61,648 nucleotides of DNA from Burkholderiales bacterium (GTDB taxonomy: Bacteria; Pseudomonadota; Gammaproteobacteria; Burkholderiales; SG8-41): positions 1 through 61,648 of the forward strand of contig JBOIEQ010000004.1 of NCBI GenBank assembly GCA_050741255.1. Reading direction: 5' to 3'. This document shows, piece after piece, positions 6,651-34,991 of the stretch. Both the position numbers and the translations under genes were made by a program. The notes below the pieces were generated by a model. The model had not been told where the DNA came from and made no database searches. It saw only the letters and a program-made list of their open reading frames with translations. Positions within the stretch are counted from its first letter, which is position 1. Every line of letters begins with the position of its first letter.

Positions 6651-6977
6651 TTACTCGAACTTCACTTCCGCCACGGTCAGATTGCCGGTCGAGGGATTGC
6701 GCGCGAAGATCACCTGGTCTTTCGCGTCCATCTTGTTGCCATTCGCGAGGCTGAACGTGACCGACGTGTAGGTCCAGACCACGCGGTCCGGGTTGCTGGC
6801 ATCGACGGCATCCGGCTTGCCGATGGCCTTCTGCACTTCCGCGTCGGACTTGCTCATCACGGCGGTGGTGAAATCCTGGCGCTCAAGCTTGGGGCCGCAG
6901 CCGGCGAGGACAGCGATCACGGCGGTACAGGCGGCGACGCGCAGCGCGCGGTGGAAACGATCGTTCAGGGTCAGCAT
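6651..6977 (-). CDS. small lipoprotein, function unknown (possibly SmpA/OmlA-like)
   Basis: 108 aa. Signal peptide with lipobox AVLAGC. No confident family assignment. Confidence 0.55.
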   Translation of the reverse strand: MLTLNDRFHRALRVAACTAVIAVLAGCGPKLERQDFTTAVMSKSDAEVQKAIGKPDAVDASNPDRVVWTYTSVTFSLANGNKMDAKDQVIFARNPSTGNLTVAEVKFE

Positions 6978-7100
6978 GTGACGCTCTCCATTCGGGATTC
7001 GACATTCGCGATTCGGAACTCGGCTACGCCCGCAGCGGCTCCGCCGTGTCTGGCACGGAACGGCAGTCTAGGCGGCCTACCTTACCCGAGGCTTACGGCG

Positions 7101-8081
7101 TCATTCCGGGGTGATCCCGGCCCCCTTGAACACTTTCGACCACTTGGCGATCTCGCCGGGCACGAAATTGCGCAGGCTCTCCGGCGTCGAATCGTCCACC
7201 ACTTCGACGCCCAGCCCGTCCAGCCGCGCCCGCGTCGCCGGGTCCTTGGCCACCGCATTGATCTCGCGGTTCAGCCGTTCGACGATCGCGCGCGGCGTCT
7301 TCGCCGGCGCGAAGAACATGTTCCACGTGTAGGCCTCGAAGCCGGGCAGGCCGGTCTCCGACACGGTGGGCAGGTCCGGCAGCGCGTGCGCGCGCCGCAG
7401 CGTGGCGGTGGCGATGCCGCGCAGAGGCCCGGCGCGCACATGACCCGCCGCCCCGCCGACGCCCTCGCACACCGCGCTGATGTGCCCTGCCAGCAGGTCG
7501 TTGATCGCGGGCCCGGTGCCTTTATAAGGGACGTGCACCATGTCGAGGCCGCCGCCCTGCTGCTTGAACATCTCGAAGCACATGTGGCTGATGCCGCCGG
7601 GGCCCGACGAACCGAACTTGTACTTGCCCGGATTGGCCTTCAATTCCGCGATCAGCGTCTTCACGTTCGTCGCCGGCAGCACCGCCGGGTTCACCATGAT
7701 CACCATCGGCACGTTGACCGCGAGCGCCACCGGGGCGAAGTCCTTGACCGCGTCATACGGCACTTTCTTGCCCGACGCCGGATGCAGGCCATGCGTGCTG
7801 ATCACGCCCAGGAGCAGCGTGTAACCATCCGGCGCCGCATTCTTCGCCAGTTCCGTGCCGATGACGCCTGCCGCGCCGGCCCGGTTGTCGACGATGACCG
7901 GCACGCCGAGATTCTCGGACAGCTTCTGCGCGTACACCCGGCCGACGATGTCGGTCGGTCCGCCCGCGGCATAGCCGATCACGATGCGGATCGGTTTATT
8001 GGGAAATTTCTCCTGCGCCCAGACGAACCCGGCACATAGCGCGCACGCCAGGGCCATCACGCTTCGCTGCAACATGGACAT
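7101..8081 (-). CDS. Bug/TctC-family periplasmic substrate-binding protein
   Basis: C-terminal 326 aa of the artefactual 781-aa ORF 7101..9446: MSMLQRSVMALACALCAGFVWAQEKFPNKPIRIVIGYAAGGPTDIVGR...DNRAGAAG...APDGYTLLL...VPYKG. GGAGGA precedes the start, so ATG 8075 may be the true start. Confidence 0.85.
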   Translation of the reverse strand: MSMLQRSVMALACALCAGFVWAQEKFPNKPIRIVIGYAAGGPTDIVGRVYAQKLSENLGVPVIVDNRAGAAGVIGTELAKNAAPDGYTLLLGVISTHGLHPASGKKVPYDAVKDFAPVALAVNVPMVIMVNPAVLPATNVKTLIAELKANPGKYKFGSSGPGGISHMCFEMFKQQGGGLDMVHVPYKGTGPAINDLLAGHISAVCEGVGGAAGHVRAGPLRGIATATLRRAHALPDLPTVSETGLPGFEAYTWNMFFAPAKTPRAIVERLNREINAVAKDPATRARLDGLGVEVVDDSTPESLRNFVPGEIAKWSKVFKGAGITPE

Positions 8082-8089
8082 CCTCCTCG

Positions 8090-9397
8090 TTATTTTCTGA
8101 TGGCCTTCTTGCGCGATGCTTTCCGCGCTTCCGCGGCAACGGCCGTTTCCTCCGGAAACCGCGTGTCCTCGACGATGCCCTCGCGCGCGAGCGCCGGCAG
8201 TTCCGCCTCGTCGCCGGCGATGCAGCCGTAGCGCTGCAGCACCGCGATCGTGTCCTCCCCGAGCCGCGGTGGCGGCTTGCGCACGCTTTCCCGGAACTTT
8301 TCGTACTTCACCGGCCGCACCGGCACGCGCATGCGCCCGCGGCCGAGCGGTTCGAGCAACTCGCGCTGTTTGACCTGTGGGTGCTCGACCAGGTCCGCGA
8401 CATTCAGCACCGGACCGCAGGGCACGTCGTGCGCCTGGAAGACCGCCTCCCACTCGGCGGTGGTCTTCTGCTTCATCACCGCGCACAATTCCTTGAACAG
8501 CGGCGCGCTGTGCTGGGCCCGTGTGGTCAGTGTGACGTAGCGCGGGTCTTCCAGCCATTGCGGCCGGTCGAGCGCGACACACAGGTTGCGCCAGAAGCCC
8601 TGGTTGAACGCCGCCACCACGATGTGGCCGTCCGCGGAGGGGAAGCCGCCCATCGGCACCACCGTCGGATGCGCACCGCCCGTGCGCATCGGCACCTTGC
8701 CCGTCAGCTCGTAATACGGCACGTAGTAGCCGAGGATGTTGAACAGGCAGTCGAAATTGCTGACGTCGAGGTACTGCCCCCGTCCGTGACGCTCCTTCTC
8801 GCGGATCGCGACGACGATTGCCATCGCCGCATACAGGCCGGGAATGAAGTCGCCCACGGAAAGTCCCGCCCGCACCGGCGGGCCGTCGGCTTCGCCCGTC
8901 AGCGACATCAGCCCCGACATCGCCTGGATCACGCCGTCGAAGGCGGGCCGGTCGCGCAGCGGGCTCTCCTGGCCGAAGCCGCTGATCGCGCAATACACCA
9001 GCCCGGGATTCGTTTTCGCCAGTTCCTCGTGTCCCAGTCCCAGCGCTTCCATCACGCCCGGGCGGAAGTTGTGGATCAGCACATCGGCCTGAGCGATCAA
9101 CTGGTCGAGAAACGCCTTGCCGCGCGGATGCTTGATGTTCAGCGACACGCTGTGCTTGTTGCGGTTCACCGCCGCGAAGAAATGGCTGATGCCGTCGTCG
9201 TGCGGTGGCGTGCCGCGCGCGGTGTCGCCGCGCCCGGGCGCCTCGATCTTGAGCACGGTTGCGCCGAGGTCGGCGAGGATCATCGAGGCGAAAGGTCCCG
9301 CGATCACGTGGGTCAGATCGACAATGGTGATGCCGGACAGCGGCAATGCGCCGTCCGCACTCTTGCCCGTGGCCGATGCGGCCTTCTGCTGCGACAT
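8090..9397 (-). CDS. family III CoA-transferase (CaiB/BaiF-like)
   Basis: ORF 8090..9403 (TTG), trimmed to ATG 9397. Contains LSGITIVDLTHVIAGPFASMILADLGATVLKIEAPGRGD. Basic C-terminal extension ...ARKASRKKAIRK. Confidence 0.85.
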   Translation of the reverse strand: MSQQKAASATGKSADGALPLSGITIVDLTHVIAGPFASMILADLGATVLKIEAPGRGDTARGTPPHDDGISHFFAAVNRNKHSVSLNIKHPRGKAFLDQLIAQADVLIHNFRPGVMEALGLGHEELAKTNPGLVYCAISGFGQESPLRDRPAFDGVIQAMSGLMSLTGEADGPPVRAGLSVGDFIPGLYAAMAIVVAIREKERHGRGQYLDVSNFDCLFNILGYYVPYYELTGKVPMRTGGAHPTVVPMGGFPSADGHIVVAAFNQGFWRNLCVALDRPQWLEDPRYVTLTTRAQHSAPLFKELCAVMKQKTTAEWEAVFQAHDVPCGPVLNVADLVEHPQVKQRELLEPLGRGRMRVPVRPVKYEKFRESVRKPPPRLGEDTIAVLQRYGCIAGDEAELPALAREGIVEDTRFPEETAVAAEARKASRKKAIRK

Positions 9398-9399
9398 GC

Positions 9400-10587
9400 T
9401 CAATGACTCCGCGTCGCGGTGGAAGCGCGCGTGGCGGACACGGCATCCTTGCCGAGAAAATGCTCGGTATGGGAACCCAGCGCGGGCGGCCCCTGCCGCG
9501 CGCCGCGCGACCCGTTGATCTTGAACGGCGGCCCCGCGGTGGTGAGCTTCCCGCCCGCGGCGTGGTCCACTTCGATCATCACCCCGTTGCTGCGCACCGG
9601 CTCATTCGCCATCACCTCGTTCAGCGTGTTCAGCGGGCCGTTGGGCACCTGCGCACGATCGAGCGCGGCCAGCCAGTAGGCGCGCGGCTTGTCCTTGAAA
9701 ATGCCGTTCAGCAGGCGATTCACTTCGTCGCGGTTCGCCACCCGCTCCACGATCGTGGCAAACCCGGCGCGTGCGCCGTATTCGGGAATCCCCAGCGCGT
9801 CGCACACACCGCGCCAGTATTCGTCGCGCGTCGCCGCGATCACGAAAGGGCCATCGGCCGCGTGAAAGACGTCCCACGGGCAGGCCTGCGGATGCCCGCT
9901 GCCGAGGCGCGGCAGCTCGCCGCCGGTGGCGAGCACTTGCTGCAGCCGGAGGCCCAGCAGCGACACCATCGCATCGAGCATGCCGAGCTCCACGCGTTGC
10001 GGCTCGCCGGTGCGCCGGCTCGCGTGCACGGCCATCATGATGCCCAGCGCCGCGGTGACGCCGGAATGGATGTCGGCGATCGGCGCGCCTGCGGGCAGCG
10101 GACCGCCGCCGGGTTCGCCGGTGATGCTCATGATGCCGGACACTGCCTGCAGCACCACATCCAGCCCCTGCTTGTCCTTGTACGCGCCGTCGGCGCCGAA
10201 GGCCGAGATCGAGCAATAGACGATCTTCGGATTCAATTCGACCAGCCGCTCGTAAGAGAGGCCCAGCCGCGCCATCGTGCCCGGCCGGAAGTTCTCCACC
10301 ACGACGTCCGCCGTGCGGATCAGGTTCTCCGCCTGCGCGAGACCGCCCTCCGCCTTGAGGTCGATCACGACGCTTTTCTTGTTGCGGTTCAGCGCCAGGA
10401 AACCGACGTGCTCGCCTTTCACCCGCACGGTGCCCGACGTGCGGAAGGCCTCCCCCTCCGGCGGCTCGATCTTCACCACCTCCGCGCCGTAATCGCCCAG
10501 CAGCATCGTGCACATGGGTCCCGCGGCATGGTGCGTGAAATCGACGACGCGCAGCCCCTCGAGCGGCAGCGAACTTGAAGACGTCAT
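9400..10587 (-). CDS. family III CoA-transferase (CaiB/BaiF-like)
   Basis: Trimmed to ATG 10587: MTSSSSLPLEGLRVVDFTHHAAGPMCTMLLGDYGAEVVKIEPPEGE. Its stop lies 2 nt before the next gene's ATG. Confidence 0.85.
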   Translation of the reverse strand: MTSSSSLPLEGLRVVDFTHHAAGPMCTMLLGDYGAEVVKIEPPEGEAFRTSGTVRVKGEHVGFLALNRNKKSVVIDLKAEGGLAQAENLIRTADVVVENFRPGTMARLGLSYERLVELNPKIVYCSISAFGADGAYKDKQGLDVVLQAVSGIMSITGEPGGGPLPAGAPIADIHSGVTAALGIMMAVHASRRTGEPQRVELGMLDAMVSLLGLRLQQVLATGGELPRLGSGHPQACPWDVFHAADGPFVIAATRDEYWRGVCDALGIPEYGARAGFATIVERVANRDEVNRLLNGIFKDKPRAYWLAALDRAQVPNGPLNTLNEVMANEPVRSNGVMIEVDHAAGGKLTTAGPPFKINGSRGARQGPPALGSHTEHFLGKDAVSATRASTATRSH

Positions 10588-10595
10588 GACGGCGC

Positions 10596-11534
10596 CTACA
10601 GCCCCGCCATGCCGCCGCGCGGCGGAATGATCGGCCGCTCGTCGTCGGGACCGAAGCCACCGAGCGGCGCATAGATCTCGCGGCGTTTGGCCACCGCCGC
10701 GGACGCGCCCTTGCTGCGCACTTCCTTGAAGAAGGCAAACTCGCCCTCCTCGAAGCGCAGCTTGAGTCCCAGGGTGTGTCCGAAGTAAAGCTCGGTGAAG
10801 GCCTGCCCCATGCCCATCGCCTCCCACACGAGATGCGTATAGGCCTTGCCGGACACGATGCCGTCGATCGGCAACAGGGCAATGCGCCGCGCCTCGTTCA
10901 TGACTTCGTCGGCCAGCTGTTCCTTCGGCACCGCGCGGTTGACCAGTCCGATCAGCGACGCCTCCCGTCCGCTCCAGGTGCGCCCGCTGATCATCATCTC
11001 GCGCGTGCGCTTGTAGCCGATCAGATGCGCGTAGAGCCGAATCAGCGTGATGCCGGAGATGCCGCCGACCTGGCCGAGATTGCCGATGTGGGCGTCTTCC
11101 GCCGCGATCGAAATGTCACAGCAGGCCTGCAGCTGGTTGCCGAGCTCGATGCACTGGCCGGCAATCTGCGCGATGGTCGGCTTCAGCGAGAAGAACAGGC
11201 GTTTCCACACATTGCGGTAATGCCGCTGCATGCGCAGCTGATGGCGGTTCGGCTGCCCCTTCGGATCAGTCTTGGAGCGGGTGCCGAAGCCCTCGAAATA
11301 CCCCTCGAGGTCGTGGCCCCCACAGAAGTGATCGCCCTCGCCGCGGATGACCACGACCTTGACGTCGTCGTTGCCTTCCCAGTCGTCGATGGCCGCCAGC
11401 AACTGGTCCTCGCCCCAGAAGGGCGACGCGTTGCGCTTCCCCGGATTGCTGAGCGTGACGGTAGCGATCTTCGTGGCCGGATCGACCACGTACTTAATGT
11501 ATTCGTAGGGATACTTCTTCTGTTCAGCGCTCAT
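10596..11534 (-). CDS. enoyl-CoA hydratase/isomerase (crotonase) superfamily protein
   Basis: Trimmed to ATG 11534: MSAEQKKYPYEYIKYVVDPATKIATVTLSNPGKRNA...VVVIRGEGDHFCGGHDL. First gene of a 4-gene minus-strand operon. Confidence 0.8.
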   Translation of the reverse strand: MSAEQKKYPYEYIKYVVDPATKIATVTLSNPGKRNASPFWGEDQLLAAIDDWEGNDDVKVVVIRGEGDHFCGGHDLEGYFEGFGTRSKTDPKGQPNRHQLRMQRHYRNVWKRLFFSLKPTIAQIAGQCIELGNQLQACCDISIAAEDAHIGNLGQVGGISGITLIRLYAHLIGYKRTREMMISGRTWSGREASLIGLVNRAVPKEQLADEVMNEARRIALLPIDGIVSGKAYTHLVWEAMGMGQAFTELYFGHTLGLKLRFEEGEFAFFKEVRSKGASAAVAKRREIYAPLGGFGPDDERPIIPPRGGMAGL

Positions 11535-22659: not shown

Positions 22660-23874
22660 ATGGATTTTGAATTTGCCAGTCGCGTGCTTACGCATCACGA
22701 TTCGATCTTATCGAATTTCATCGAACTGTCAGGAGCCATCGTGATCGAGCAAAAGATCAATGAATTCTTCAGTGATGCCGAGGCTACCGGCTTTGGCACC
22801 GGCTGGTGGAGCGGGGTGCTGTCGGCCTTCTTCGGAATTCTCGCCCTGGGGGCGGTGGTGTGCCTGCATTTTCCCCAGGTGCTGACGTCTCCCGAGTTGC
22901 GGGACTACTACCCCATGCCCCTCATGCGCATGCTGATCCAGGGGCTGGTGGTGGGCGCGATCCTCCTGGGTGTCGTGTCCGCGATGCTGCGGAGGAAGAA
23001 AGTCCTCGCGTTGACCGGGATGGTGTTCGCACTGGGCGCGACGCTGCTGGGCGGCGCCAGCGTGCCCATCAACCAAACGCTGGGCAATGGCCCGGCTATC
23101 GGGCTGGACTGGTTCCTGCTCGACATGCTGCTCATGACGATGATCTTTTCGCCCATCGAAGTGCTCTGGCCGGCCTATCCGGAGCAAAACGTCTTCCGGG
23201 CCGACTGGCTGCAGGACATCGTGTACTTCCTGTCCACGCACCTGCCCATCCAGATCACGTCCTTCCTGATCCTGCTGCCCGCCACCCAGATCTCGACCTA
23301 CCTCGCCATTCCCGGCATGGTGGATGCGGTCGGCCGCCTGCCCTGGCTGGTGCAGTTCGTCCTCGCCGTCCTGGTGGCCGATCTCGCCGAGTACGCCATC
23401 CACCGGGCCTTCCACACGGTGCCCTTCCTGTGGCGCTTCCACGCCATCCACCATTCATCGAAGGCGCTGGACTGGTTGGCGGGTTCTCGGGCCCACATCG
23501 TGGAAGACCTCTTGATACGGGGAGGCATGCTGATTCCGATGATGTTCATCTTCTCGCACGAGATCATCGTGGCCTACCTGCTCTTCGTGACCATCCATGC
23601 GACCTGGGCGCATTGCAATTTCCGCCCGACCATCAAGTGGCTGGAGCCCTTCTTGATCCAGCCGAGGTTCCATCACTGGCACCACACCTCACAGAAGGAA
23701 GCGATCGACCGGAACTTCGCCATCCATTTTCCGTGGATCGACAAAATCTTCGGGACCTGTTACTTCCCCGCCGACGGCAGGTGGCCGGATACTTACGGCC
23801 TGCACAACGAGAAAATTCCAGCCACCTTCTGGGGTCAGTTCGTGTATCCGTTTACGGGCAAGAAGACGGGCTAG
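22660..23874 (+). CDS. fatty-acid hydroxylase/sterol-desaturase-superfamily membrane protein, alkylglycerol-monooxygenase (AGMO)-like His boxes
   Basis: 404 aa. N-terminal polytopic region, then EYAIHRAFH...WRFHAIHHSS...WAHCNF...FHHWHHTSQKEAIDRNFAIHFPWIDKIFGT. An alternative start is GTG 22741, preceded by AGGAG. GC is lower than in the flanking genes. Confidence 0.75.
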   Translation: MDFEFASRVLTHHDSILSNFIELSGAIVIEQKINEFFSDAEATGFGTGWWSGVLSAFFGILALGAVVCLHFPQVLTSPELRDYYPMPLMRMLIQGLVVGAILLGVVSAMLRRKKVLALTGMVFALGATLLGGASVPINQTLGNGPAIGLDWFLLDMLLMTMIFSPIEVLWPAYPEQNVFRADWLQDIVYFLSTHLPIQITSFLILLPATQISTYLAIPGMVDAVGRLPWLVQFVLAVLVADLAEYAIHRAFHTVPFLWRFHAIHHSSKALDWLAGSRAHIVEDLLIRGGMLIPMMFIFSHEIIVAYLLFVTIHATWAHCNFRPTIKWLEPFLIQPRFHHWHHTSQKEAIDRNFAIHFPWIDKIFGTCYFPADGRWPDTYGLHNEKIPATFWGQFVYPFTGKKTG

Positions 23875-23880
23875 CGCCAG

Positions 23881-24738
23881 CTAGAAGTTCAAGGAAGTCA
23901 GCCGAACGTCCGCGGGAATTTCCGTGCCCTTGGCCGTGGCATTGACGAGGCCAAGACTTTTCATCGTCTTGACGGTAACGAATCCAAAATCGTATTCGGA
24001 TTGATCGTGGCTCAGGCGCAGGAGATGCGGATGATGGTGATGATTGTTCTGCAGGCAGGCACTGAAGGTCGCAGTGACCGGTAGCCACTCGCCGATGTTC
24101 ATCGCATTATCGTGCTCGTCGTTGTAGCGCCGATATCCGTAGGCCCGATCGTGGGTCCAATAGTTCTGGATCATGTTTACCCAGGTTGCGAATATTCTGA
24201 GGCCGACCCACATGACGAGCGCGAACTTCCAGTCTCGCACCAGCAGCCATAAGAGGGAGAAGCTGAAGAACTGTGAAAACACCGCGAAATAATTGTTCGA
24301 GACGAGCCGGAACGCCCAGGATTTGAAGATCCTGTCGGTGGCAAGGTTCTCATTGCAAGAATACGGAATCAGGCAGAGATACAAGGTTCGCCAAAAGCCA
24401 TCGCTTGCAAGTTTATTGGGGTCCCCGGGATGATCCGAATGTTTATGATGCAAACGATGGCGATTCACCCATTCGATGGGGTCGACGTAGAGACCGAAGA
24501 GGTTGTTGATGATAACGACGAGCTTTATGAACCATTCTTTGTAATCGAGTGAACGATGCGCGATACCCAGGTGAAGCACATCGGCCAGATATAGTCCGGC
24601 CATAAACCAGAAAAAGAAAAAGTACGCTCCGCCTATTGCCAACCCTCCCCAAGGCCCCAAATGAGCCGGCGCGAAAAGCATGCACGCGAGCAGATACAAA
24701 AAAATAATGGAATAGCCAATGACATTGTATATTTTCAC
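23881..24738 (-). CDS. membrane fatty-acid desaturase, Delta9 acyl-CoA/acyl-lipid type
   Basis: 285 aa. Three His boxes: HRSLDY, HRLHHKHSDHPGDPN and NNHHHHP. This is the most AT-rich gene in the window. Confidence 0.8.
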   Translation of the reverse strand: MKIYNVIGYSIIFLYLLACMLFAPAHLGPWGGLAIGGAYFFFFWFMAGLYLADVLHLGIAHRSLDYKEWFIKLVVIINNLFGLYVDPIEWVNRHRLHHKHSDHPGDPNKLASDGFWRTLYLCLIPYSCNENLATDRIFKSWAFRLVSNNYFAVFSQFFSFSLLWLLVRDWKFALVMWVGLRIFATWVNMIQNYWTHDRAYGYRRYNDEHDNAMNIGEWLPVTATFSACLQNNHHHHPHLLRLSHDQSEYDFGFVTVKTMKSLGLVNATAKGTEIPADVRLTSLNF

Positions 24739-24800
24739 TGACGAATCTCCCTGTCATATCCGAACCGAAATTAGAACGCCCTTCAATTAATATGTAAAGG

Positions 24801-24816
24801 GGGAAGACGTCTTTCC
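24801..24816. promoter_or_regulatory. palindrome GGGAAGACGTCTTTCC (perfect 10-bp core AAGACGTCTT) in the divergent desaturase/reductase promoter region
   Basis: Read directly. It lies in a 132-bp AT-rich intergenic region between divergently transcribed genes. Confidence 0.3.
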
Positions 24817-24870
24817 TTTAAGAGAAATTTCCAATCGGGCGGATGACGCTGTTCAACTATTTTTACGCGC

Positions 24871-26118
24871 ATGCGAATTAGAAATTTTCCGAAGTCCGTC
24901 TTTCTGACCGGCGCCACCGGCGTGCTGGGCGGCCGCGTTCTGAAAGACCTTCTTCAATCGACTTCATGCAATATCTATTGCCTGGCGCGCGGCAAAGATG
25001 CCGCGCATTGTCGCGAACGCGTCCGTTCCTTTGTTCGCGTTTATGACAATGAGGGGGCGCTGGAGCAGGAATTCCTCGCGCGCGTCACTGTGATACCCGG
25101 CGATGTAACCCACGAGCGGCTCGGGTTATCGGCACCCAGTTTCGCCAAGCTTCAAAGCTGCACCGATCTCACGATCCACGCGGCGGCCAACACGAGCCTG
25201 CTTCTCAAATACAAACGGCTCGAACCGATCAACGTTCACGGCACCGGTCGCGTAATAGAGTTCTGTCTCGGCACCGCCGAAAAAATGCTCTCGTATGTCT
25301 CCACCTACACGGTAATGGGGGATAAAACTTTCGATAACAGCATTCGCTTTCAAGAGACCGATTTCGATCTGGGGCAGGGATTCAAGCACATGAATTACCA
25401 GCGCTCGAAGTTTCGCGCGGAAGCGATGGTGCGGCGGGCCCAGGAGCGCGGCCTGAAATGGCGCATCTTCCGTCCGGGCCAGATTTACGGCGACTCGATC
25501 ACCGGCGCATATCCACATTCCGAGACGCAGGTCACGGGGCTGTTCTACGATCTCTTCAGAACCGCAATGGACACGCGGGTGATGCCCGAATCGTATATCC
25601 ACTACGATGTCGTTCCTGTGGATTACGTGAGCCGCGGGATCATCGCCCTCTCTGCAGGCATCGACAATTTCTTCGACGTCTATCACCTGACGAATCCAGA
25701 TGTGAAAACTTTCGCCCAGATCATGGGGCTTCTGCGGGAGATCGGTTACCCGATCGATCTGCTGCCCGAGGAAATCTACAAGCAAAGACTTCGACAAGGA
25801 GAAATCACCAAGAACGGCGAGCCCTACGCGAGCACAATGCTAAAGGCCTTCAATCTCTGGTATTTCATCTCCAAGATCAGCTTCTACGGCAGCGCGATGA
25901 CGGACTGCGAGTACACGCGCTCGAAGCTTGAAAATCTGGGAGTGGCCTGTGCGCCAATCGATCGCAAGCTCATCGAAACCTATGTGCAAGCCGGCATCCG
26001 CGAAGGATACTTTCCGCGGCCCCCGCATAGTCACAACCAGAATGCCGCGCGCGCTTCTACCGATTTGGCGGCTGACTTCCCGGCAGGTCTTCTCAGCGCC
26101 GAAGGATCTCCCATATGA
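24871..26118 (+). CDS. thioester-reductase / fatty acyl-CoA reductase-like SDR (NAD_binding_4, 'male sterility' type)
   Basis: 415 aa. Rossmann motif FLTGATGVLGGRV and catalytic YQRSK. Its stop overlaps the next ATG (ATGA at 26115-26118). Confidence 0.75.
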   Translation: MRIRNFPKSVFLTGATGVLGGRVLKDLLQSTSCNIYCLARGKDAAHCRERVRSFVRVYDNEGALEQEFLARVTVIPGDVTHERLGLSAPSFAKLQSCTDLTIHAAANTSLLLKYKRLEPINVHGTGRVIEFCLGTAEKMLSYVSTYTVMGDKTFDNSIRFQETDFDLGQGFKHMNYQRSKFRAEAMVRRAQERGLKWRIFRPGQIYGDSITGAYPHSETQVTGLFYDLFRTAMDTRVMPESYIHYDVVPVDYVSRGIIALSAGIDNFFDVYHLTNPDVKTFAQIMGLLREIGYPIDLLPEEIYKQRLRQGEITKNGEPYASTMLKAFNLWYFISKISFYGSAMTDCEYTRSKLENLGVACAPIDRKLIETYVQAGIREGYFPRPPHSHNQNAARASTDLAADFPAGLLSAEGSPI

Positions 26119-27836
26119 TGAAGTGGTGGGGTTGGGGCGATCCGCAGTTGGCGTTCCCGATGGCCGACAAGCCGAATCTCTGGCCCTGGGCGGCAAAGAA
26201 GCTTGGGATTACGAGTGTCACGCCCACCGCCATGCCCGTCGATCTCTCGTCGATCGAGATCGCTCCTTCGCGCGCGAGCGCTGAGCTGCTCGCCGAACTC
26301 GGCCGGACATTAAAACCCGAACAGATCACACTCGATCCGCTCGAGCGGCTACTTCACAGTTACGGCAAAAGCTTCCCCGACCTCTTCTCCGTTCGAAACG
26401 GAGTCTTACGACGTGCGCCAGACGCTGTTCTCCTTCCGGATTCGCACGAACAAGTAGAAGCTCTCGTTCAGCTCGCGCACCTGCGCAACTTTTGTCTGAT
26501 CCCTTTTGGCGGCGGAACGAACATTGTCGGCGGGATTAATCCCGAAGTCGGCGAAGCACGTCCGATGATGACACTCAGTCTGCGCAACATGAACCGCCTG
26601 ATTTCACTCGATGCGGAATCCCGGACTGCGACGATCGAGGCGGGAGCACTCGGCCCCAAGCTCGAGGCCGATCTGGCGGCACAAGGTCATTCGCTCGGGC
26701 ATTACCCCGACTCTTTCGAATACTCCACCCTGGGAGGATGGCTGGCCACCCGCTCGGCGGGCATGCAGTCAGACGCCTACGGCAAGATCGAGGACATGGT
26801 CGTTTCTATCAAGATGGTCACTCCCTCGGGCACAATCGTCACGAAAGCGGTTCCGTCGTCCTCCGCCGGCCCCGATCTCAATCGCATCATGATCGGATCC
26901 GAGGGCATTCTGGGCGTGATCACCCAGGCGACGGTGCGTGTCCACAAAACACCCGCCATCAAGGATTATCGGGGTTACCTTTTCAGGAGTTTCGAAGGCG
27001 GGGTGCGCGCCATCCAGGAGTGCCTGGACCGCGGTTTCGCACCGAGCATGATTCGGCTTCAGGACAGCGGAGAGAGCGAGCTCGCTTTTAATATGAAAGC
27101 CCCCAAACAGGGGCTTGAGGGCTGGATACAGAATCGAGTGAAGGACTGGCTCAGATTCCGCGGCTACATCGAGCCTTGCATCCTGATCGTTGGCTTCGAG
27201 GGTGAGGAAAATTCGATCGCAGCTACCCGCCGCTCCGTCTTCGGCATCCTGAGGAGTCATGGCGGATTCTCTCTCGGCAAAGGTGTTGGCAAGACATGGT
27301 CGAAGGATAAGTTCAACATCCCCTACCTGCGCGACTACATCATGGACTACGGCTGCATGGCCGACGTTGCTGAGACTTCGACCCTGTGGTCGAAGGTGCT
27401 GCCGCTCCATGCTGGCACGGTTGAAGCCGTGAAGGCGCGCTTCCGGCAGGACGAAGGCACGGGCTACATCGGCTGCCACATCTCCCATACCTACAAAACC
27501 GGCGCTTGTCTCTACTTCACGTTCGCTGCGCGACAACCCAGGGGCAAGGAACTCGAGCATTACTATGCATACAAGGACCTCGTCACCAATACAATCATGA
27601 GCCTGGGCGGCACCCTCAGCCACCACCACGCCGTTGGAATCGAGCATCGCCCCTGGATGAGGCAGGAAGTCTCTCCTGCCGGGCTGCAGGCCCTCCACGC
27701 GCTCAAGGCTTCGCTGGATCCGAATCACGTATTGAATCCAGGCAAGCTTCTGCCGGAGCTCGGCGCTAGCGCAGACCGCGCGGGATCGTCAGCCTCATTG
27801 CGGAACCGTTCCTTCCTTGGAGATCGGGCCGCCTGA
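26115..27836 (+). CDS. FAD-linked oxidase, alkyldihydroxyacetonephosphate synthase (AGPS)-like
   Basis: 573 aa. N-terminal MMKWWGWGD (compare eukaryotic AGPS W-N-G-W-G). FAD-binding IPFGGGTNIVGG. CHISHTYKTGACLYFTFA and LSHHHAVGIEHRPWM (AGPS HHH loop). Confidence 0.75.
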   Translation: MMKWWGWGDPQLAFPMADKPNLWPWAAKKLGITSVTPTAMPVDLSSIEIAPSRASAELLAELGRTLKPEQITLDPLERLLHSYGKSFPDLFSVRNGVLRRAPDAVLLPDSHEQVEALVQLAHLRNFCLIPFGGGTNIVGGINPEVGEARPMMTLSLRNMNRLISLDAESRTATIEAGALGPKLEADLAAQGHSLGHYPDSFEYSTLGGWLATRSAGMQSDAYGKIEDMVVSIKMVTPSGTIVTKAVPSSSAGPDLNRIMIGSEGILGVITQATVRVHKTPAIKDYRGYLFRSFEGGVRAIQECLDRGFAPSMIRLQDSGESELAFNMKAPKQGLEGWIQNRVKDWLRFRGYIEPCILIVGFEGEENSIAATRRSVFGILRSHGGFSLGKGVGKTWSKDKFNIPYLRDYIMDYGCMADVAETSTLWSKVLPLHAGTVEAVKARFRQDEGTGYIGCHISHTYKTGACLYFTFAARQPRGKELEHYYAYKDLVTNTIMSLGGTLSHHHAVGIEHRPWMRQEVSPAGLQALHALKASLDPNHVLNPGKLLPELGASADRAGSSASLRNRSFLGDRAA

Positions 27837-27916
27837 AACTGCGTCAGCGGCCACAACGGTGAGCGCGGTGCCGCAGGCTGGCGGGTGTGGGTTCATATGA
27901 TTCTTGTCGGAAATCA

Positions 27917-28531
27917 ATGATCACGGCCATTGTTGCAGTAGCCGCTTACCTTCTCGGGTCTGTGTCCTTCGCGGTAATTGTGAGCCGCGTGTTCCAGCTA
28001 CCCGATCCGCGCACCTATGGCTCGGGCAATCCCGGCGCAACCAATGTGCTGCGGTCCGGTAACAAATTCGCGGCCGCGCTGACGCTGCTGGGAGACGCAC
28101 TCAAAGGCTGGCTGGCAGTGTGGCTGGCAGAGCGCATCGCGCCTGCCGGTGACGCCGAACTGGCGATGGCCCTTGCGGGCACGCTGTCTGTGCTCGGTCA
28201 CATGTATCCGCTCTTTCACGGGTTTCAGGGCGGCAAGGGCGTGGCAACGGCGCTGGGCGCACTGTTTGGCTTTAGCGTTTACCTCGGGCTGGGTGGGATT
28301 TCGACGTGGATCATTCTCGTGGCGTTTTTTCGCACATCCTCGATTGCATCAATCGCATCGGCTATATGTGCGCCGTTTGTAGCGTGGATGCTATTCGGTT
28401 TTTCTCATCCGGTTTTTGCCAGCGTGGTGCTGTTGGCATTGCTGGTGATTTATCGTCATCGTCAGAACATCAAAAGTATTCTGGCCGGCACGGAAAGAAA
28501 GTTCGGACAAAAAGCCGGGCCTGGCGCTTAA
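27917..28531 (+). CDS. plsY: acyl-phosphate:glycerol-3-phosphate acyltransferase PlsY-family protein
   Basis: ORF 27887..28531, trimmed to ATG 27917: MITAIVAVAAYLLGSVSFAVIVSRVFQLPDPRTYGSGNPGATNVLRSG...HMYPLFHGFQGGKGVAT. Codon usage is atypical for the host, with many A/T third positions. Confidence 0.85.
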   Translation: MITAIVAVAAYLLGSVSFAVIVSRVFQLPDPRTYGSGNPGATNVLRSGNKFAAALTLLGDALKGWLAVWLAERIAPAGDAELAMALAGTLSVLGHMYPLFHGFQGGKGVATALGALFGFSVYLGLGGISTWIILVAFFRTSSIASIASAICAPFVAWMLFGFSHPVFASVVLLALLVIYRHRQNIKSILAGTERKFGQKAGPGA

Positions 28532-28813
28532 GTTGGAACAGATTGGAACCCGGGCAGCGACCGACGTTATCCCTCTTTTGCAGCATTCCGCCAAAGCGAA
28601 ATAACCTGACGCATCAGCACTCGACTCTTCCAAAGAAGAAAATGCGCACAATCCTGATCATCGCGGGTCTTTACCCCTACCCGGTCAAGCGTTGCGCCGG
28701 CGGCGTGGTCTTCGGCCGGAACGTCATCGCGCTGAAAGGCATCGGTCCTACGCTGCGCGTGGGCCAGGCCCTCGCCGAAGAATGGAATTCCTGACGCCGG
28801 GCAGTCCCGAGGT

Positions 28814-31958: not shown

Positions 31959-32077
31959 GCTGCGATTCCTTGATCGATGCGATGCGGCGGCAAGCTTCTC
32001 GGGCAGGCGCGAGCCTGTCAAGCGAATCGCGATTCGCTACACTCGGGTGGCTGTTTTCCCTTCCCGTCGAGGCCGGT

Positions 32078-33052
32078 ATGACGCTGATGCTCCGCTGCTT
32101 GCTTCTGCTGGCGCTCGTCGCGAATGGCGCCACGCTTTCCCTCACCGCCTCCGCGGCATATCCGGACCGGCCGATCCGCCTGGTCGCGCCCTTCCCGCCG
32201 GGCGGCGGCGTCGATCTCGTGGCGCGCGTCCTCGCGCAGGCGCTCTCCGACGGCTTCAAGGTGCAGGTCATCGTGGACAACCGCGCGGGCGCCACCGGCC
32301 GCATCGGCACCGAACTCGTCGCCAGGGCGGCGCCCGACGGCTACACGCTGCTGCTCGGCAGCGTCGGCGCGAACGCCATCATCCCGGCGGCGTACCGCAA
32401 TCTGCCGTACGACGCGGTGAACGACTTCGCGCCGATCGGCGTCGTCGCCTCGGCACCCTACGTCCTGGTGGTGCATCCGTCGCTGCCGGCCAAAAACATG
32501 AAGGAACTGATCGCGCTCGCCCGCGCGAAGCCCGACGCCCTCACCTACGCCTCGTCCGGCAACCTGAGCGGCGCGCACCTGTCCGGGGAATTCATCAACT
32601 ATCTGGGCAAGGTGCAGATGCTGCACGTGCCGTACAAAGGCGCCGCGCCGGCGATGAACGACCTGCTGGGCGGGCAGGTGGCGATCACCTTCGCGGCCAT
32701 TTCCGGCGCCGTGCCCTTCGTCCAGTCCGGGCGCCTGCGCGCGCTCGGCGTCACCGGCCCCAAACGGTCGGCGGCCTTTCCCGACGTGCCGGCGATCGGC
32801 GAAGTGCTCAAGGGCTACGATGTCAGCCAGTGGTACGCCCTCTTCGCGCCCGCCGGCACGCCGAAGGACGTCGTCGCGCGGCTGCACGAGGAGATGGTCA
32901 AAGCGCTCGACAAGCCCGACGTCCGCAAGCGGCTCGTGGACATCGGCGCGGATCCCGTGGGCGGCACGCCCGACCAGCTCGCCGCGCAGGTCAAGGCCGA
33001 GATCGCCCGCTGGGGCACCGTCATCAAGGCTGCGGGCATCAAACCGGAATAA
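32078..33052 (+). CDS. Bug/TctC-family periplasmic substrate-binding protein
   Basis: Trimmed to ATG 32078. Signal peptide, then YPDRPIRLVAPFPPGGGVDLVAR...DNRAGATG...APDGYTLLL. Confidence 0.88.
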   Translation: MTLMLRCLLLLALVANGATLSLTASAAYPDRPIRLVAPFPPGGGVDLVARVLAQALSDGFKVQVIVDNRAGATGRIGTELVARAAPDGYTLLLGSVGANAIIPAAYRNLPYDAVNDFAPIGVVASAPYVLVVHPSLPAKNMKELIALARAKPDALTYASSGNLSGAHLSGEFINYLGKVQMLHVPYKGAAPAMNDLLGGQVAITFAAISGAVPFVQSGRLRALGVTGPKRSAAFPDVPAIGEVLKGYDVSQWYALFAPAGTPKDVVARLHEEMVKALDKPDVRKRLVDIGADPVGGTPDQLAAQVKAEIARWGTVIKAAGIKPE

Positions 33053-33063
33053 TCGCCGCTGGG

Positions 33064-33360
33064 CTAGCGCCGCTTGCCGAATCCCGCCAGGTGTATGCGC
33101 CGCGACTCGTTCAGGATCGCCAGGTACACCTTGTGCAGCATCTTGTCGTTGACGCCGTACTGTCTGGCCCACGCCTTGCGCTGCGCGAACACTTTCTTCC
33201 GGTGCGCCGGATTGCCGATGCTCTTGCGGTCGGTCTTGAACTGCAGCGCGGCCTTGGCGTAGCCGGTGCGCTGCCCAAGCAGTTTGACAATGGCGCGGTC
33301 GATCGTATTGACCGCGACGCGGATATCGGTGAGATTGCGGCAGGCACGGGGAGATTTCAT
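33064..33360 (-). CDS. chorismate mutase type II domain protein (PchB/isochorismate-pyruvate-lyase-like)
   Basis: 98 aa. CRNLTDIRVAVNTIDRAIVKLLGQRTGYAKAALQFK matches the AroQ-class helix pattern. Confidence 0.6.
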   Translation of the reverse strand: MKSPRACRNLTDIRVAVNTIDRAIVKLLGQRTGYAKAALQFKTDRKSIGNPAHRKKVFAQRKAWARQYGVNDKMLHKVYLAILNESRRIHLAGFGKRR

Positions 33361-33406
33361 GGTTTCCTTTCAGCACGGGTTCCGGAACGGGCAGTGTACC
33401 GCCATC

Positions 33407-34381
33407 ATGGCTGAGGCCAAACCACGGGCGCTGCGGGCATGCGCCGCCCTCATGCTGCTCGCCGCACTGCCGGCGCTCGCGCAGACGCCGCCCTATCCCG
33501 CCAAAACGATACGCCTCATCGTCCCCTGGGCGGCGGGCGGCACCACGGACATCCTCGGGCGCATCGTCGGGCAGAAACTCGCCGAGGGCTGGGGCCAGGC
33601 GGTCGTCATCGACAACCGCGGCGGCGCCAGCGGCAACATCGGTTCCGAAGTCGCGATCCGTGCGCCCGCCGACGGCTATACGCTGCTGCTCGGTTCCATG
33701 AGCACGCACACGATGAACCCCTTCCTCTACAGCAAGATGAGCTGGGACCCGATCAACGATGTCGCGCCCATCTCGCTGGTGGCGACCGTCGCGAGCGTGC
33801 TGGTCGCACATCCCTCGCTGCCGGCGAAGAACGTGAAGGAGCTGATCGCGCTTGCGAAGGCGCGGCCCGGACAGCTCAACTTCGCCTCCGGCAGCAGCGT
33901 CTACCAGTTGTGCGGCGAACTGCTCAAGATGACCGCGAAGATCGACCTCGTGCACGTGCCGTACAAGGGCGGCGGCCAGGCGGTGACCGACCTCATGGGC
34001 GGGCAGATCGAAACCCTGTTCACCGGCGCGCCGGTGACGCTGCCGCACATCAAGGCCGGCAAGCTGAAGGTGCTGGCGGTGACCAACGGCAAGCGCGCCG
34101 CCGTGCTGCCGGACGTGCCGACCATCGGCGAGACGCTGCCGGGCTACGAACTGAACAACTGGTACGGCCTGCTGGCGCCGCCCGGCACGCCCAGGGCGAT
34201 CATCGACAAGGTCAACGCCGACCTGGCGCGCGCGCTCGGCGCGCCGGATATCCGCGAGAAGCTGCTTGTACTCGGCGCCGATCCAACCCCGAGTACCCCG
34301 GAGCGTTTCGCGACGGTGATCCGTACCGATGCCGAACGCGCGGGAAAAATCATCAAGGCGGCGGGGGTTAAACCGGATTGA
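33407..34381 (+). CDS. Bug/TctC-family periplasmic substrate-binding protein
   Basis: Trimmed to ATG 33407. ...YPAKTIRLIVPWAAGGTTDILGR...DNRGGASG...PADGYTLLL. Confidence 0.88.
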   Translation: MAEAKPRALRACAALMLLAALPALAQTPPYPAKTIRLIVPWAAGGTTDILGRIVGQKLAEGWGQAVVIDNRGGASGNIGSEVAIRAPADGYTLLLGSMSTHTMNPFLYSKMSWDPINDVAPISLVATVASVLVAHPSLPAKNVKELIALAKARPGQLNFASGSSVYQLCGELLKMTAKIDLVHVPYKGGGQAVTDLMGGQIETLFTGAPVTLPHIKAGKLKVLAVTNGKRAAVLPDVPTIGETLPGYELNNWYGLLAPPGTPRAIIDKVNADLARALGAPDIREKLLVLGADPTPSTPERFATVIRTDAERAGKIIKAAGVKPD

Positions 34382-34472
34382 CCGGCGGACGTTCCCCGCC
34401 ACCGGAACCGGCCGGCGTCCGCCGGGTCCTACCAGTGACGGCCGCGCCCCCTGCGGCGGAAGGAGACCGGAC

Positions 34473-34991
34473 ATGACCCTCACCTGCATACGACTGGCCT
34501 GCGCGCTGTGCCTGGCAGGCGCACCGCTCTTCGCCGCGGCGAACGAGAATACCGGCATCGCGAACGCCGCCATCGACATGCGCACCTTCCTTCGCGTATC
34601 GACGGATGCTGCGCTGCACCGCGATACGCGCCGCCTGTCCGAGCGCGAGTTCATCCGCATGAGCCGCGAGCCGGGCACCGTGGTCCTGGACGCCCGCAGC
34701 CGCGAGCGCTACGACGAGTTGCATATCAAGGGCGCACTCAACCTGAGCTTTCCGGACATCGCGGTGGACAGCCTCGCGCAACTGATTCCGGACCGGAACA
34801 CCCGCATCCTCATCTACTGCAACAACAACTTCCTGAACGCCGATACCGCGTTTCCCGCCAAGCTGCCGGGCGCCTCGCTCAACCTCTCGACCTACATCGC
34901 GCTGTACCACTACGGCTACCGCAACCTCTACGAACTGGGGCCGGTCATCGACGTCAACCGCGCCGCGCTCGACTTGCTCTCCACGCGCTGA
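34473..34991 (+). CDS. secreted rhodanese-like domain protein
   Basis: Trimmed to ATG 34473 with AAGGAG upstream. Signal peptide, then VVLDARSRERYDELHIKGALNL...RILIYCNNNFLN (active-site Cys loop). Confidence 0.65.
   Translation: MTLTCIRLACALCLAGAPLFAAANENTGIANAAIDMRTFLRVSTDAALHRDTRRLSEREFIRMSREPGTVVLDARSRERYDELHIKGALNLSFPDIAVDSLAQLIPDRNTRILIYCNNNFLNADTAFPAKLPGASLNLSTYIALYHYGYRNLYELGPVIDVNRAALDLLSTR

What the first reader, a model, noticed from the sequence alone, without database searches (positions are those of the whole stretch)
22660..28531. Lower-GC five-gene lipid island: candidate aerobic AGPS-route ether-lipid system in a Burkholderiales-type genome
Seen in sequence: between a host-like M20 peptidase gene and the DUF4387/AtuA-like operon, base composition drops visibly. 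Third codon positions become A/T-rich, most strongly in 23881..24738. Every gene in this block is lipid-related:
- an AGMO-like fatty-acid hydroxylase (22660..23874)
- a Delta9-type His-box desaturase (23881..24738)
- a thioester/fatty-acyl reductase (24871..26118)
- an AGPS-like flavoenzyme (26115..27836)
- a PlsY acyltransferase (27917..28531)
Established knowledge: in eukaryotes a fatty acyl-CoA reductase supplies the fatty alcohol. AGPS then exchanges the acyl group of acyl-DHAP for that alcohol to create the ether bond, and AGMO is the only enzyme known to cleave alkylglycerol ethers. In bacteria, as far as I know, the AGPS-type route has been tied experimentally only to myxobacteria, while anaerobes use the unrelated PlsA/PlsR system.
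Inference: the island is a horizontally acquired, self-contained module that makes and possibly remodels 1-O-alkyl glycerolipids in an aerobic betaproteobacterium. I do not know of such a system being described.
Basis: partly seen in the sequence, partly recalled or inferred. Interest (0 to 1): 0.85.

Follow-up and report, generated by a model that had tools for sequence, protein, structure and literature searches.

The report
Bacterial AGPS-type ether-lipid gene cluster
A Burkholderiales-type soil bacterium carries a horizontally acquired lipid gene cluster built around a genuine relative of the animal ether-lipid enzyme AGPS, which suggests that the oxygen-tolerant route to ether lipids occurs in bacteria beyond myxobacteria, in a version with some parts swapped.

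Summary
The five genes and the GC drop are real. The 573-aa protein is a true AGPS relative: E 7e-133 to Dictyostelium AGPS against 1e-31 to lactate or glycolate oxidases, with the catalytic Tyr, HHH loop and Arg conserved. Its start overlaps the stop of a stand-alone thioester reductase (TR), and the TR-AGPS pair recurs in several phyla.

Three points need correcting:
- **FAH:** it is not an AGMO orthologue (26-31% identity; real bacterial AGMO-like proteins reach 48-63%), and its GC3 is host-like.
- **Two modules:** FAH and the desaturase (DES) form a separate, near-invariant pair, mostly found alone in Acidobacteriota.
- **Not self-contained:** the island lacks the alkyl-DHAP reductase and the GNPAT-type acyltransferase that flank AGPS elsewhere. 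It has a captured betaproteobacterial PlsY instead.

New here: FAH-family genes are nearly always paired with a desaturase, either the delta9-like DES or a CarF/PEDS1-family (PF10520) gene. Such pairs adjoin AGPS in three independent layouts, so DES may be a plasmalogen-type desaturase analogue.

AGPS homologues in bacteria are already reported, but I found no description of these architectures. I rate it a new variant of a known system. All functions are inferred from sequence.

The parts
22741..23874 (+). FAH: membrane di-iron enzyme of the fatty-acid hydroxylase superfamily (377 aa; the longer ORF starts at 22660). About 200 aa of N-terminal transmembrane region, then the His-box domain.
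   Evidence: PF04116 at 102.9 bits over residues 233-366. His motifs HRAFH, HAIHH, HATWAH and HHWHH. Gene call of 377 aa. Only 26-31% identity to AGMO. GC3 0.865, host-like.
23881..24738 (-). DES: divergent delta9 (SCD)-type membrane desaturase, 285 aa, convergent with FAH.
   Evidence: PF00487 at 32.2 bits, cut-off 29.7. His boxes HLGIAH, HRLHH and QNNHH. Human and mouse SCD1 structures match at E 0.0025-0.005. Paired with FAH in 82 of 83 genome loci and 55 of 80 metagenome loci.
24739..24870 (.). AT-rich (GC 0.43) intergenic region between the divergent DES and TR-AGPS-PlsY genes; presumed to hold promoters.
   Evidence: Sequence and GC. Partly conserved with L001 and L016. The promoter scan found no more than chance gives.
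24871..26118 (+). TR: stand-alone thioester reductase (415 aa), the presumed fatty-alcohol supplier.
   Evidence: PF07993 at 183.8 bits. TIGR01746 at 231.4 bits, above its cut-off of 213. Best solved relatives are PKS/NRPS terminal reductase domains, MxaA at E 9e-39. GATGVLGG and YQRSK motifs.
26115..27836 (+). AGPS: alkylglycerone-phosphate synthase homologue (573 aa). Its start overlaps the TR stop codon (ATGA).
   Evidence: Dictyostelium AGPS E 6.8e-133, guinea-pig AGPS E 1.1e-90, next best family E 1e-31. Equivalents of Tyr578, His615-617 and Arg419 are present and invariant in 11 bacterial homologues. Junction sequence.
27917..28531 (+). PlsY: acyl-phosphate-dependent glycerol-3-phosphate acyltransferase copy (204 aa), outside the housekeeping plsY context.
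   Evidence: TIGR00023 at 182.7 bits, cut-off 137. Aquifex PlsY E 1e-33. Follows AGPS in the window, L001, L016 and L151, and is convergent with AGPS in L233. Shares a clade with the housekeeping plsY of a GC 0.57-0.59 betaproteobacterial lineage, 200 of 200 bootstraps.

Best explanation
This is a horizontally acquired lipid gene cluster made of two modules.

**Core module (TR-AGPS-PlsY, plus strand).**
1. TR reduces a fatty acyl thioester (acyl-ACP or acyl-CoA) to a fatty alcohol.
2. AGPS, a flavoenzyme, swaps the acyl group of 1-acyl-dihydroxyacetone phosphate for that alcohol. This makes the ether bond of 1-O-alkyl-DHAP.
3. After reduction and sn-2 acylation by enzymes not encoded here, the product enters phospholipid synthesis as a plasmanyl (alkyl-acyl) lipid.
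4. The captured PlsY copy possibly supplies the acylated three-carbon substrate. It would stand in for the GNPAT-type acyltransferase that other bacteria encode beside AGPS.

**Second module (FAH and DES, convergent).** This is an oxygen-dependent pair of membrane di-iron enzymes that travels as a unit. It most likely modifies the ether-linked chain. DES may act as the desaturase and could make the vinyl ether, because a PEDS1/CarF-family desaturase fills the same slot in sister clusters.

**Shown:** the family identities, the conserved catalytic residues, translational coupling of TR and AGPS, the synteny patterns and the composition shift.
**Inferred:** every substrate and product, the role of PlsY, and the roles of DES and FAH.
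For: - AGPS identity and catalytic residues.
- 4-bp TR/AGPS overlap. TR and AGPS are adjacent in Burkholderiales, Steroidobacteraceae, Pseudobdellovibrionaceae and other Pseudomonadota.
- Four-gene clusters TR-AGPS/SDR-acyltransferase in L005, L006, L009 and L020 match the four peroxisomal steps one for one. This supports a fatty-alcohol-supplying role for TR.
- The whole FAH/DES/TR/AGPS set recurs in L001, L016, L003, L004, L068, L233 and L367.
- A desaturase+FAH module lies beside AGPS in three independent layouts: the window type; L387, with an AGPS-DES tandem; and L030, with PF10520 desaturase-FAH divergent from TR-AGPS.
- FAH-family genes pair either with DES (55 loci) or with a PF10520 gene (7 loci plus L030).
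- Horizontal transfer: GC3 0.61-0.71 against 0.86-0.93; no shared flanks; the same contrast in L016 and L003.
Against: - There are no lipid data for any organism that carries this cluster.
- No alkyl-DHAP reductase and no proven DHAP acyltransferase is encoded in the window.
- The window's PlsY has all canonical motifs and nothing that signals a changed substrate. It may be a hitch-hiker from the donor lineage.
- DES-FAH pairs stand alone in most genomes (77 of 83 genome loci). Their substrate therefore need not be an AGPS product.
- FAH has a different history from the other four genes.
- No mobility genes, tRNA or flanking repeats mark the borders.
Confidence: 0.62

Rival explanations
1. TR-AGPS makes ether lipids, but the other three genes are neighbours with no role in that pathway. 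DES-FAH would be a general membrane-lipid desaturase and hydroxylase pair. PlsY would be an ordinary glycerol-3-phosphate acyltransferase carried along from the donor genome.
For: - DES-FAH occurs without adjacent TR-AGPS in 77 of 83 genome loci and 53 of 55 metagenome DES-FAH loci.
- PlsY motifs are canonical.
- PlsY groups with housekeeping copies of a lower-GC betaproteobacterial lineage.
- The Steroidobacteraceae versions lack PlsY.
Against: - Three independent juxtapositions of a desaturase+FAH module with AGPS, including an AGPS-DES tandem 80 bp apart in L387.
- PlsY lies next to AGPS in two different orientations.
- Three of the five AGPS-linked PlsYs carry a substitution at a Thr that is invariant in 74 housekeeping copies.
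Confidence: 0.22
2. The AGPS homologue and TR make a specialised non-membrane product, such as neutral ether lipids, a signalling lipid or a storage compound, rather than bulk plasmanyl phospholipids.
For: - In M. xanthus the AGPS route contributes only a minor share of ether lipids, and ether lipids there also have signalling roles (PMC9131029).
- TR is most similar to the terminal reductase domains of PKS/NRPS assembly lines.
- No reductase is encoded here to convert alkyl-DHAP to alkyl-G3P.
Against: - The cluster has no PKS, NRPS or carrier-protein gene.
- Sister clusters encode exactly the phospholipid-type steps, SDR and PlsC-type acyltransferase.
- A PlsY lies next to AGPS.
Confidence: 0.1
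3. The 573-aa protein is an ordinary D-lactate or glycolate oxidase-type FAD enzyme, and the 'lipid island' is a chance neighbourhood with a composition artefact.
For: Weak sub-threshold NCBIfam matches to GlcD (151.7 bits against a cut-off of 567.9). It shares the FAD_binding_4 and FAD-oxidase_C domains with those enzymes.
Against: - 447 bits to solved AGPS against 113 bits or less to any oxidase.
- AGPS-specific Tyr, HHH loop and Arg are conserved.
- The gene set is syntenic across genomes.
- The shift is at third codon positions, which amino-acid content cannot explain.
Confidence: 0.03

Closest known systems
Myxococcus xanthus MXAN_1676-1675-1674 operon (AGPS, FAR-GNPAT fusion, NAD-dependent epimerase-family protein)
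   Same: An AGPS-family flavoenzyme clustered with a fatty-acyl reductase. It is aerobic and follows the DHAP-based logic (PMC9131029, PMC13012113). FAR-acyltransferase fusions of this type sit near AGPS in Elusimicrobia and in Silvanigrella and Fluviispira.
   Different: - The reductase here is a stand-alone thioester-reductase (R-domain) type with no Sterile domain and no fused acyltransferase.
- There is no GNPAT/PlsC-type acyltransferase and no second reductase.
- PlsY, a delta9-like desaturase and a FAH enzyme are present instead.
Eukaryotic peroxisomal ether-lipid pathway (FAR1, GNPAT, AGPS, acyl/alkyl-DHAP reductase) plus PEDS1 and AGMO
   Same: - AGPS matches Dictyostelium AGPS at 447 bits with the catalytic residues conserved.
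- The TR/AGPS/SDR/acyltransferase clusters in other bacteria mirror all four peroxisomal steps.
- A desaturase plus a hydroxylase-superfamily enzyme next to AGPS recalls PEDS1 and AGMO, which both act on plasmanyl lipids.
   Different: - DES is not a PF10520/PEDS1 member.
- FAH is not an AGMO orthologue.
- GNPAT and the DHAP reductase are missing from the window.
- There is no peroxisomal context.
ElbD/elbA-E ether-lipid cluster of myxobacteria
   Same: An aerobic bacterial ether-lipid system that contains a thioester-reductase-type domain (PMC9131029).
   Different: ElbD is a multidomain enzyme (acyl-CoA synthetase, carrier protein, reductase, acyltransferase) and does not use AGPS. None of that architecture is present here.
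PlsA/PlsR and Ger of anaerobes
   Same: They also produce bacterial alkyl or alkenyl glycerol ethers (PMC13159169).
   Different: They are unrelated enzymes that act only anaerobically on preformed ester lipids. No homologue is present in the island.

Membership tests
AGPS (alkylglycerone-phosphate synthase, EC 2.5.1.26) | FAD_binding_4 plus FAD-oxidase_C two-domain flavoprotein | tested here: met
   PF01565 at 122.1 bits and PF02913 at 135.3 bits.
AGPS (alkylglycerone-phosphate synthase, EC 2.5.1.26) | Closer to experimentally solved AGPS than to any other FAD-linked oxidase | tested here: met
   2uuu E 6.8e-133 and 4bby E 1.1e-90. The best non-AGPS match is E 1.3e-31.
AGPS (alkylglycerone-phosphate synthase, EC 2.5.1.26) | Catalytic Tyr578, His615-617 loop and Arg419 (guinea-pig numbering; their roles recalled from the structural literature) | tested here: met
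   CLYFTF, LSHHHAVG and SMIRLQD align with the guinea-pig residues. The equivalent columns are invariant in 11 diverse bacterial homologues.
AGPS (alkylglycerone-phosphate synthase, EC 2.5.1.26) | Converts acyl-DHAP plus fatty alcohol to alkyl-DHAP | not testable with these tools
   Needs an enzyme assay or lipid analysis.
Fatty acyl-CoA reductase (FAR) / thioester reductase | NAD_binding_4 Rossmann domain with a catalytic YxxxK | tested here: met
   PF07993 at 183.8 bits. TIGR01746 at 231.4 bits, above its cut-off of 213.35. GATGVLGG and YQRSK.
Fatty acyl-CoA reductase (FAR) / thioester reductase | C-terminal 'Sterile' domain (PF03015) of eukaryote-type FAR | tested here: not met
   No PF03015 match. 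The solved FAR 7eoz matches only at E 1.4e-4, against 9e-39 for the MxaA reductase domain. TR is the R-domain type, not the FAR type.
AGMO (alkylglycerol monooxygenase, TMEM195) | Fatty-acid hydroxylase domain with the multi-histidine motif | tested here: met
   PF04116 at 102.9 bits. The His motifs are invariant across the FAH family.
AGMO (alkylglycerol monooxygenase, TMEM195) | Orthologue-level similarity to animal AGMO | tested here: not met
   FAH is 26-31% identical over 110-160 residues. Bacterial AGMO-like proteins (Legionella, Psychroserpens, Myxococcota) are 48-63% identical to bird AGMO. The best NCBIfam match is OlsE, far below its cut-off.
AGMO (alkylglycerol monooxygenase, TMEM195) | Tetrahydrobiopterin-dependent cleavage of 1-O-alkyl ethers | not testable with these tools
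   Needs an enzyme assay.
Delta9 (SCD/DesC-type) membrane desaturase | Three His boxes in SCD order and a Pfam FA_desaturase match | tested here: met
   HLGIAH, HRLHH and QNNHH, the last with Q in place of the first His. PF00487 at 32.2 bits, just above the cut-off of 29.7.
Delta9 (SCD/DesC-type) membrane desaturase | Clear similarity to characterised delta9 desaturases, and delta9 regiospecificity | tested here: inconclusive
   SCD1 structures match only at E 0.0025-0.005. The DesA-family model gives 35 bits against a cut-off of 400. Regiospecificity cannot be read from sequence.
PEDS1/CarF plasmanylethanolamine desaturase (PF10520) | Lipid_desat (PF10520) domain | tested here: not met
   DES has no PF10520 match. 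The PF10520 genes in L030 and L315 score 144 and 178 bits. DES is not a member; only a similar role is proposed.
PlsY (acyl-phosphate:G3P acyltransferase) | PF02660/TIGR00023 above cut-off, with conserved motifs | tested here: met
   TIGR00023 at 182.7 bits, cut-off 137.2. GSGNPGATN, GH, GGKGVAT and RH..N are all present in the window's copy.
PlsY (acyl-phosphate:G3P acyltransferase) | Housekeeping plsY gene neighbourhood of Burkholderiales | tested here: not met
   Conserved upstream families F4 and F3 and downstream family F35 are absent. AGPS precedes PlsY instead.
Complete aerobic plasmalogen pathway as defined in PMC13012113 (FAR, GNPAT, AGPS, PEDS1) | All four orthologues present | tested here: not met
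   AGPS and a reductase are present. There is no PF01553 acyltransferase or PF10520 desaturase in the island, and no relative of the AGPS-linked SDR or acyltransferase anywhere in the 61.6-kb window.
Horizontally acquired genomic island | Composition differs from the host, and insertion sites differ among genomes | tested here: met
   GC3 0.61-0.71 against 0.86-0.93 for four genes. No shared flanking genes in other genomes. The cluster's GC is below its flanks in L016 and L003 as well.
Horizontally acquired genomic island | Mobility signatures (integrase, tRNA target, flanking direct repeats) | tested here: not met
   No tRNA in the window. Only short, chance-level repeats. No mobility domains in the neighbouring genes.

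The most novel reading that the evidence does not exclude
DES would be a new plasmanyl (vinyl-ether-forming) desaturase that is not homologous to PEDS1/CarF, and it would work together with FAH. The island would then give an aerobic betaproteobacterium full plasmalogen synthesis from replaced parts: TR for FAR, PlsY for GNPAT and DES for PEDS1. The very abundant DES-FAH pairs of soil Acidobacteriota would act on those organisms' ether lipids.
Probability: 0.18. Interest if true: 0.85.

Novelty: new variant of a known kind. Interest (0 to 1): 0.6.

Why it matters
Aerobic ether-lipid and plasmalogen synthesis in bacteria has been shown experimentally only in myxobacteria. The latest census searched for orthologues of all four eukaryote-type enzymes and found them in just 73 bacterial genomes (PMC13012113). 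Clusters like this one lack two of those four orthologues, so such a census would miss them.

If the cluster is active, four things follow:
- The capacity is wider than that census suggests, and it moves horizontally among soil Proteobacteria.
- There would be a compact set of genes for making ether lipids in aerobic bacterial hosts.
- DES and FAH become concrete candidates for new ether-lipid-modifying enzymes, next to the PEDS1 and AGMO families.
- The DES-FAH pair is a testable lead for the unexplained alkyl ether lipids of aerobic Acidobacteria.

Tried and rejected
- **D-lactate or glycolate oxidase identity for the 573-aa protein:** rejected.
- **AGMO orthology of FAH:** rejected. The bait for one search was the AGMO core recalled from memory. 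Only the real sequences it returned were used.
- **CarF/PEDS1 membership of DES:** rejected.
- **Mobile-element signatures at the borders:** none found.
- **Promoter and terminator scans:** no more than chance. A hand-read TTTACA-17-TCTAAT upstream of DES fails the tool's criteria.
- **Island-specific substitutions in the window's PlsY:** none. Differences from housekeeping copies are shared with the related housekeeping lineage.
- **Genome-level co-occurrence of AGPS with DES-FAH in Terriglobia:** no assembly appeared in both lists.
- **Metagenome scan with the L030 FAH alone:** found nothing.
- **Lipid data for cultured carriers of AGPS clusters:** the Fluviispira and Silvanigrella descriptions give only routine fatty-acid profiles and do not mention ethers. 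The organism behind GCA_003427375.1 could not be identified from the paper library.
- **50-aa ORF at 28642-28794 as a remnant of a truncated gene:** no Pfam match.


Full report
**1. Observation**

- FAH: a fatty-acid hydroxylase superfamily protein at 22660/22741-23874, plus strand.
- DES: a His-box desaturase at 23881-24738, minus strand.
- TR: a thioester reductase at 24871-26118, plus strand.
- AGPS: an FAD_binding_4 + FAD-oxidase_C flavoprotein at 26115-27836, plus strand.
- PlsY at 27917-28531, plus strand.

Gene calls on the same contig in public data (GCA_975255875.1) give FAH 377 aa and PlsY 204 aa. The flanks are an M20 peptidase on one side and DUF4387/AtuA/PrpD-type genes on the other.

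GC is 0.572 in the block against 0.669 elsewhere. No equal-sized window outside it falls below 0.625. Third-position GC is 0.86-0.93 in the flanking genes. It is 0.657 in DES, 0.685 in TR, 0.713 in AGPS and 0.614 in PlsY. FAH is the exception at 0.865, which is host-like.

**2. The AGPS call holds**

Against all solved structures:
- Dictyostelium AGPS matches at E 6.8e-133 (447 bits, residues 42-546).
- Guinea-pig AGPS matches at E 1.1e-90.
- The next best matches, D-lactate dehydrogenases and glycolate oxidase, score E 1e-31 or weaker.

In the printed alignments the window protein keeps the equivalents of guinea-pig Tyr578 (CLYFTF), the His615-617 loop (LSHHHAVG), Arg419 (SMIRLQD) and Thr309. 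The importance of these residues is recalled from the structural literature. The Tyr, HHH and Arg columns are invariant in an alignment of 11 homologues from Acidobacteriota, Planctomycetota, Elusimicrobia, Oligoflexia, Opitutaceae, Gemmatimonadales, Alsobacter, Steroidobacteraceae and Polyangiaceae.

**3. TR and the core operon**

TR passes the curated threshold of the thioester-reductase domain model (231 bits against a cut-off of 213). Its best solved relatives are the terminal reductase domains of PKS/NRPS systems such as MxaA. A solved FAR matches only weakly, and the FAR 'Sterile' domain is absent. TR is therefore a stand-alone R-domain-type reductase.

Its stop codon overlaps the AGPS start (ATATGATG). 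A TR gene sits directly upstream of AGPS in several lineages.

Other bacteria add more genes. An SDR of about 270 aa is the most frequent AGPS neighbour. A PlsC-type acyltransferase, or a FAR-acyltransferase fusion like M. xanthus MXAN_1675, is also common. The four-gene arrangement TR-AGPS/SDR-acyltransferase occurs in L005, L006, L009 and L020 (Alsobacter soli). It matches, step for step, fatty-alcohol supply, DHAP acylation, ether formation and alkyl-DHAP reduction as described for the eukaryotic pathway (PMC9131029). This context is the main reason to read TR as the alcohol supplier.

**4. What the window lacks**

No relative of the AGPS-linked SDR or acyltransferase is found anywhere in the 61.6-kb window. 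The island is therefore not self-contained by the canonical scheme.

In the betaproteobacterial versions a PlsY follows AGPS (window, L001, L016, L151) or is convergent with it (L233). In the Steroidobacteraceae versions (L003, L004) and in L068, an SDR sits there instead.

The AGPS-linked PlsYs fall in one well-supported clade (200 of 200 bootstraps) with L152-L155. These are MAGs with GC 0.57-0.59, and L154 and L155 sit in the housekeeping plsY context. That clade is separate from the Cupriavidus, Ralstonia and Burkholderia housekeeping copies.

The PlsY was therefore captured from that lineage. Its GC resembles the island's, so that lineage may also be the donor. That last step is inference.

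The window's PlsY keeps every conserved motif. Three of the five AGPS-linked copies carry a substitution at a Thr that is invariant in 74 housekeeping sequences.

Whether PlsY acylates DHAP in place of GNPAT or is a hitch-hiker remains open. I put its functional involvement at roughly one in three.

**5. Two modules, not one**

A genome scan with DES returned 217 relatives. Most are in Acidobacteriota (Terriglobia) and are 72-77% identical to the window's copy.
- DES is convergent with FAH in 82 of 83 loci.
- TR-AGPS is adjacent in only five or six of those loci. All that carry a taxonomic label are proteobacterial.
- None of the window's flanking genes accompanies the cluster elsewhere.
- The cluster is also a low-GC outlier in L016 and L003.

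The window's FAH is equally distant (65-68%) from the FAHs of the genomes whose DES, TR and AGPS are its closest relatives (82-88%). Its nearest relatives (81%) sit in L231 and L233. Together with its host-like GC3, this points to a mosaic history inside the cluster.

**6. FAH is not AGMO, but it does belong with ether-lipid desaturases**

Real AGMO sequences were retrieved. FAH is 26-31% identical to them over the catalytic core. Bacterial AGMO-like proteins from Legionella, Flavobacteriia and Myxococcota are 48-63% identical to bird AGMO.

A metagenome scan with a FAH family alignment gave 80 further loci. FAH is paired there in one of two ways:
- with DES in 55 loci;
- with a PF10520 (Lipid_desat, the CarF/PEDS1/FAD4 family) gene directly upstream on the same strand in 7 loci.

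In L030 (a Bacteriovoracaceae MAG), a PF10520 gene and a full-length FAH homologue (41% identity) lie divergent from a TR-AGPS pair. This is the window's layout with a PEDS1-type desaturase in the place of DES.

In L387 an AGPS (45% identity, catalytic motifs intact) lies 80 bp upstream of DES on the same strand.

A desaturase+FAH module therefore adjoins AGPS in three layouts that cannot be derived from one another by simple inheritance. This is the best evidence that the module acts on AGPS products. It also makes DES a candidate functional analogue of PEDS1.

Two cautions apply. PF10520 also contains FAD4-type enzymes and a large bacterial clade of unknown function (PMC13012113). And most DES-FAH pairs stand alone.

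**7. Comparison with the literature**

- The M. xanthus AGPS operon is AGPS, a FAR-GNPAT fusion and an epimerase-family protein. Deleting the AGPS gene only slightly lowers ether lipids (PMC9131029).
- Homology screens have already reported agps homologues in many phyla (PMC11868695, PMC13159169, bioRxiv 10.64898/2026.06.23.733905).
- The 2026 census found all four eukaryote-type enzymes in 73 bacterial genomes, 61 of them Myxococcota (PMC13012113).
- None of the papers I could search describes the TR-AGPS/SDR-acyltransferase cluster, the FAH-desaturase module or the Burkholderiales variant with PlsY.

**8. Verdict**

I rate the cluster a new variant of a known kind of system, not a new kind.

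All functions are inferred from sequence and gene context. Most of the comparison loci are metagenome-assembled, and no lipid data exist for any carrier.

No step in this work raised a safety concern.

Noticed in passing
window 22741-23874: FAH has host-like GC3 (0.865), unlike the other four genes. It is only 65-68% identical to the FAHs of the genomes whose DES, TR and AGPS are 82-88% identical to the window's. This suggests recombination or a separate origin within the cluster.
   Followed up: partly
window 28642-28794 (+): A 50-aa ORF lies between PlsY and DUF4387 and is also called as a gene on the public copy of the contig. It has no Pfam match. My impression that it resembles the N-terminus of a truncated larger gene could not be verified.
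   Followed up: partly
L005, L006, L009, L020 (Alsobacter soli SH9), about 6800-11300 in each locus: A compact four-gene cluster, TR-AGPS convergent with SDR-PlsC-type acyltransferase, matches all four peroxisomal ether-lipid steps. Alsobacter soli is cultured and could be tested directly.
   Followed up: partly
L315 5121-8099: A PF10520 desaturase and FAH are followed by a DAGK_cat/YegS-type lipid kinase. This could be an alkylglycerol or diacylglycerol kinase-like salvage step.
   Followed up: no
L011 7035-7985: In an Elusimicrobia MAG, a different FA_desaturase-family protein sits 16 bp upstream of AGPS on the same strand. Its best NCBIfam matches are GntB- and CrtW-like, all below cut-off.
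   Followed up: partly
L001, L016, L233 PlsY genes: Three of the five AGPS-linked PlsY copies replace the Thr of the GSGNPGATN motif with Ile or Ala. That Thr is invariant in 74 housekeeping PlsYs. The window's copy keeps it.
   Followed up: partly
window 26115-27836: The bacterial AGPS scores much higher against Dictyostelium AGPS (447 bits) than against mammalian AGPS (308 bits). This may bear on the unresolved origin of eukaryotic AGPS noted in PMC13012113.
   Followed up: no
window 32018-34678 (-): The 886-aa ORF has no Pfam match. It overlaps plus-strand ORFs that cluster with a ~330-aa gene family common in other Burkholderiales loci. It is probably a spurious antisense ORF of a high-GC region.
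   Followed up: no
L004 9563-9700: The apparent 800-aa AGPS ORF is an artefact of a run of N in the assembly that joins AGPS to the following SDR gene.
   Followed up: yes
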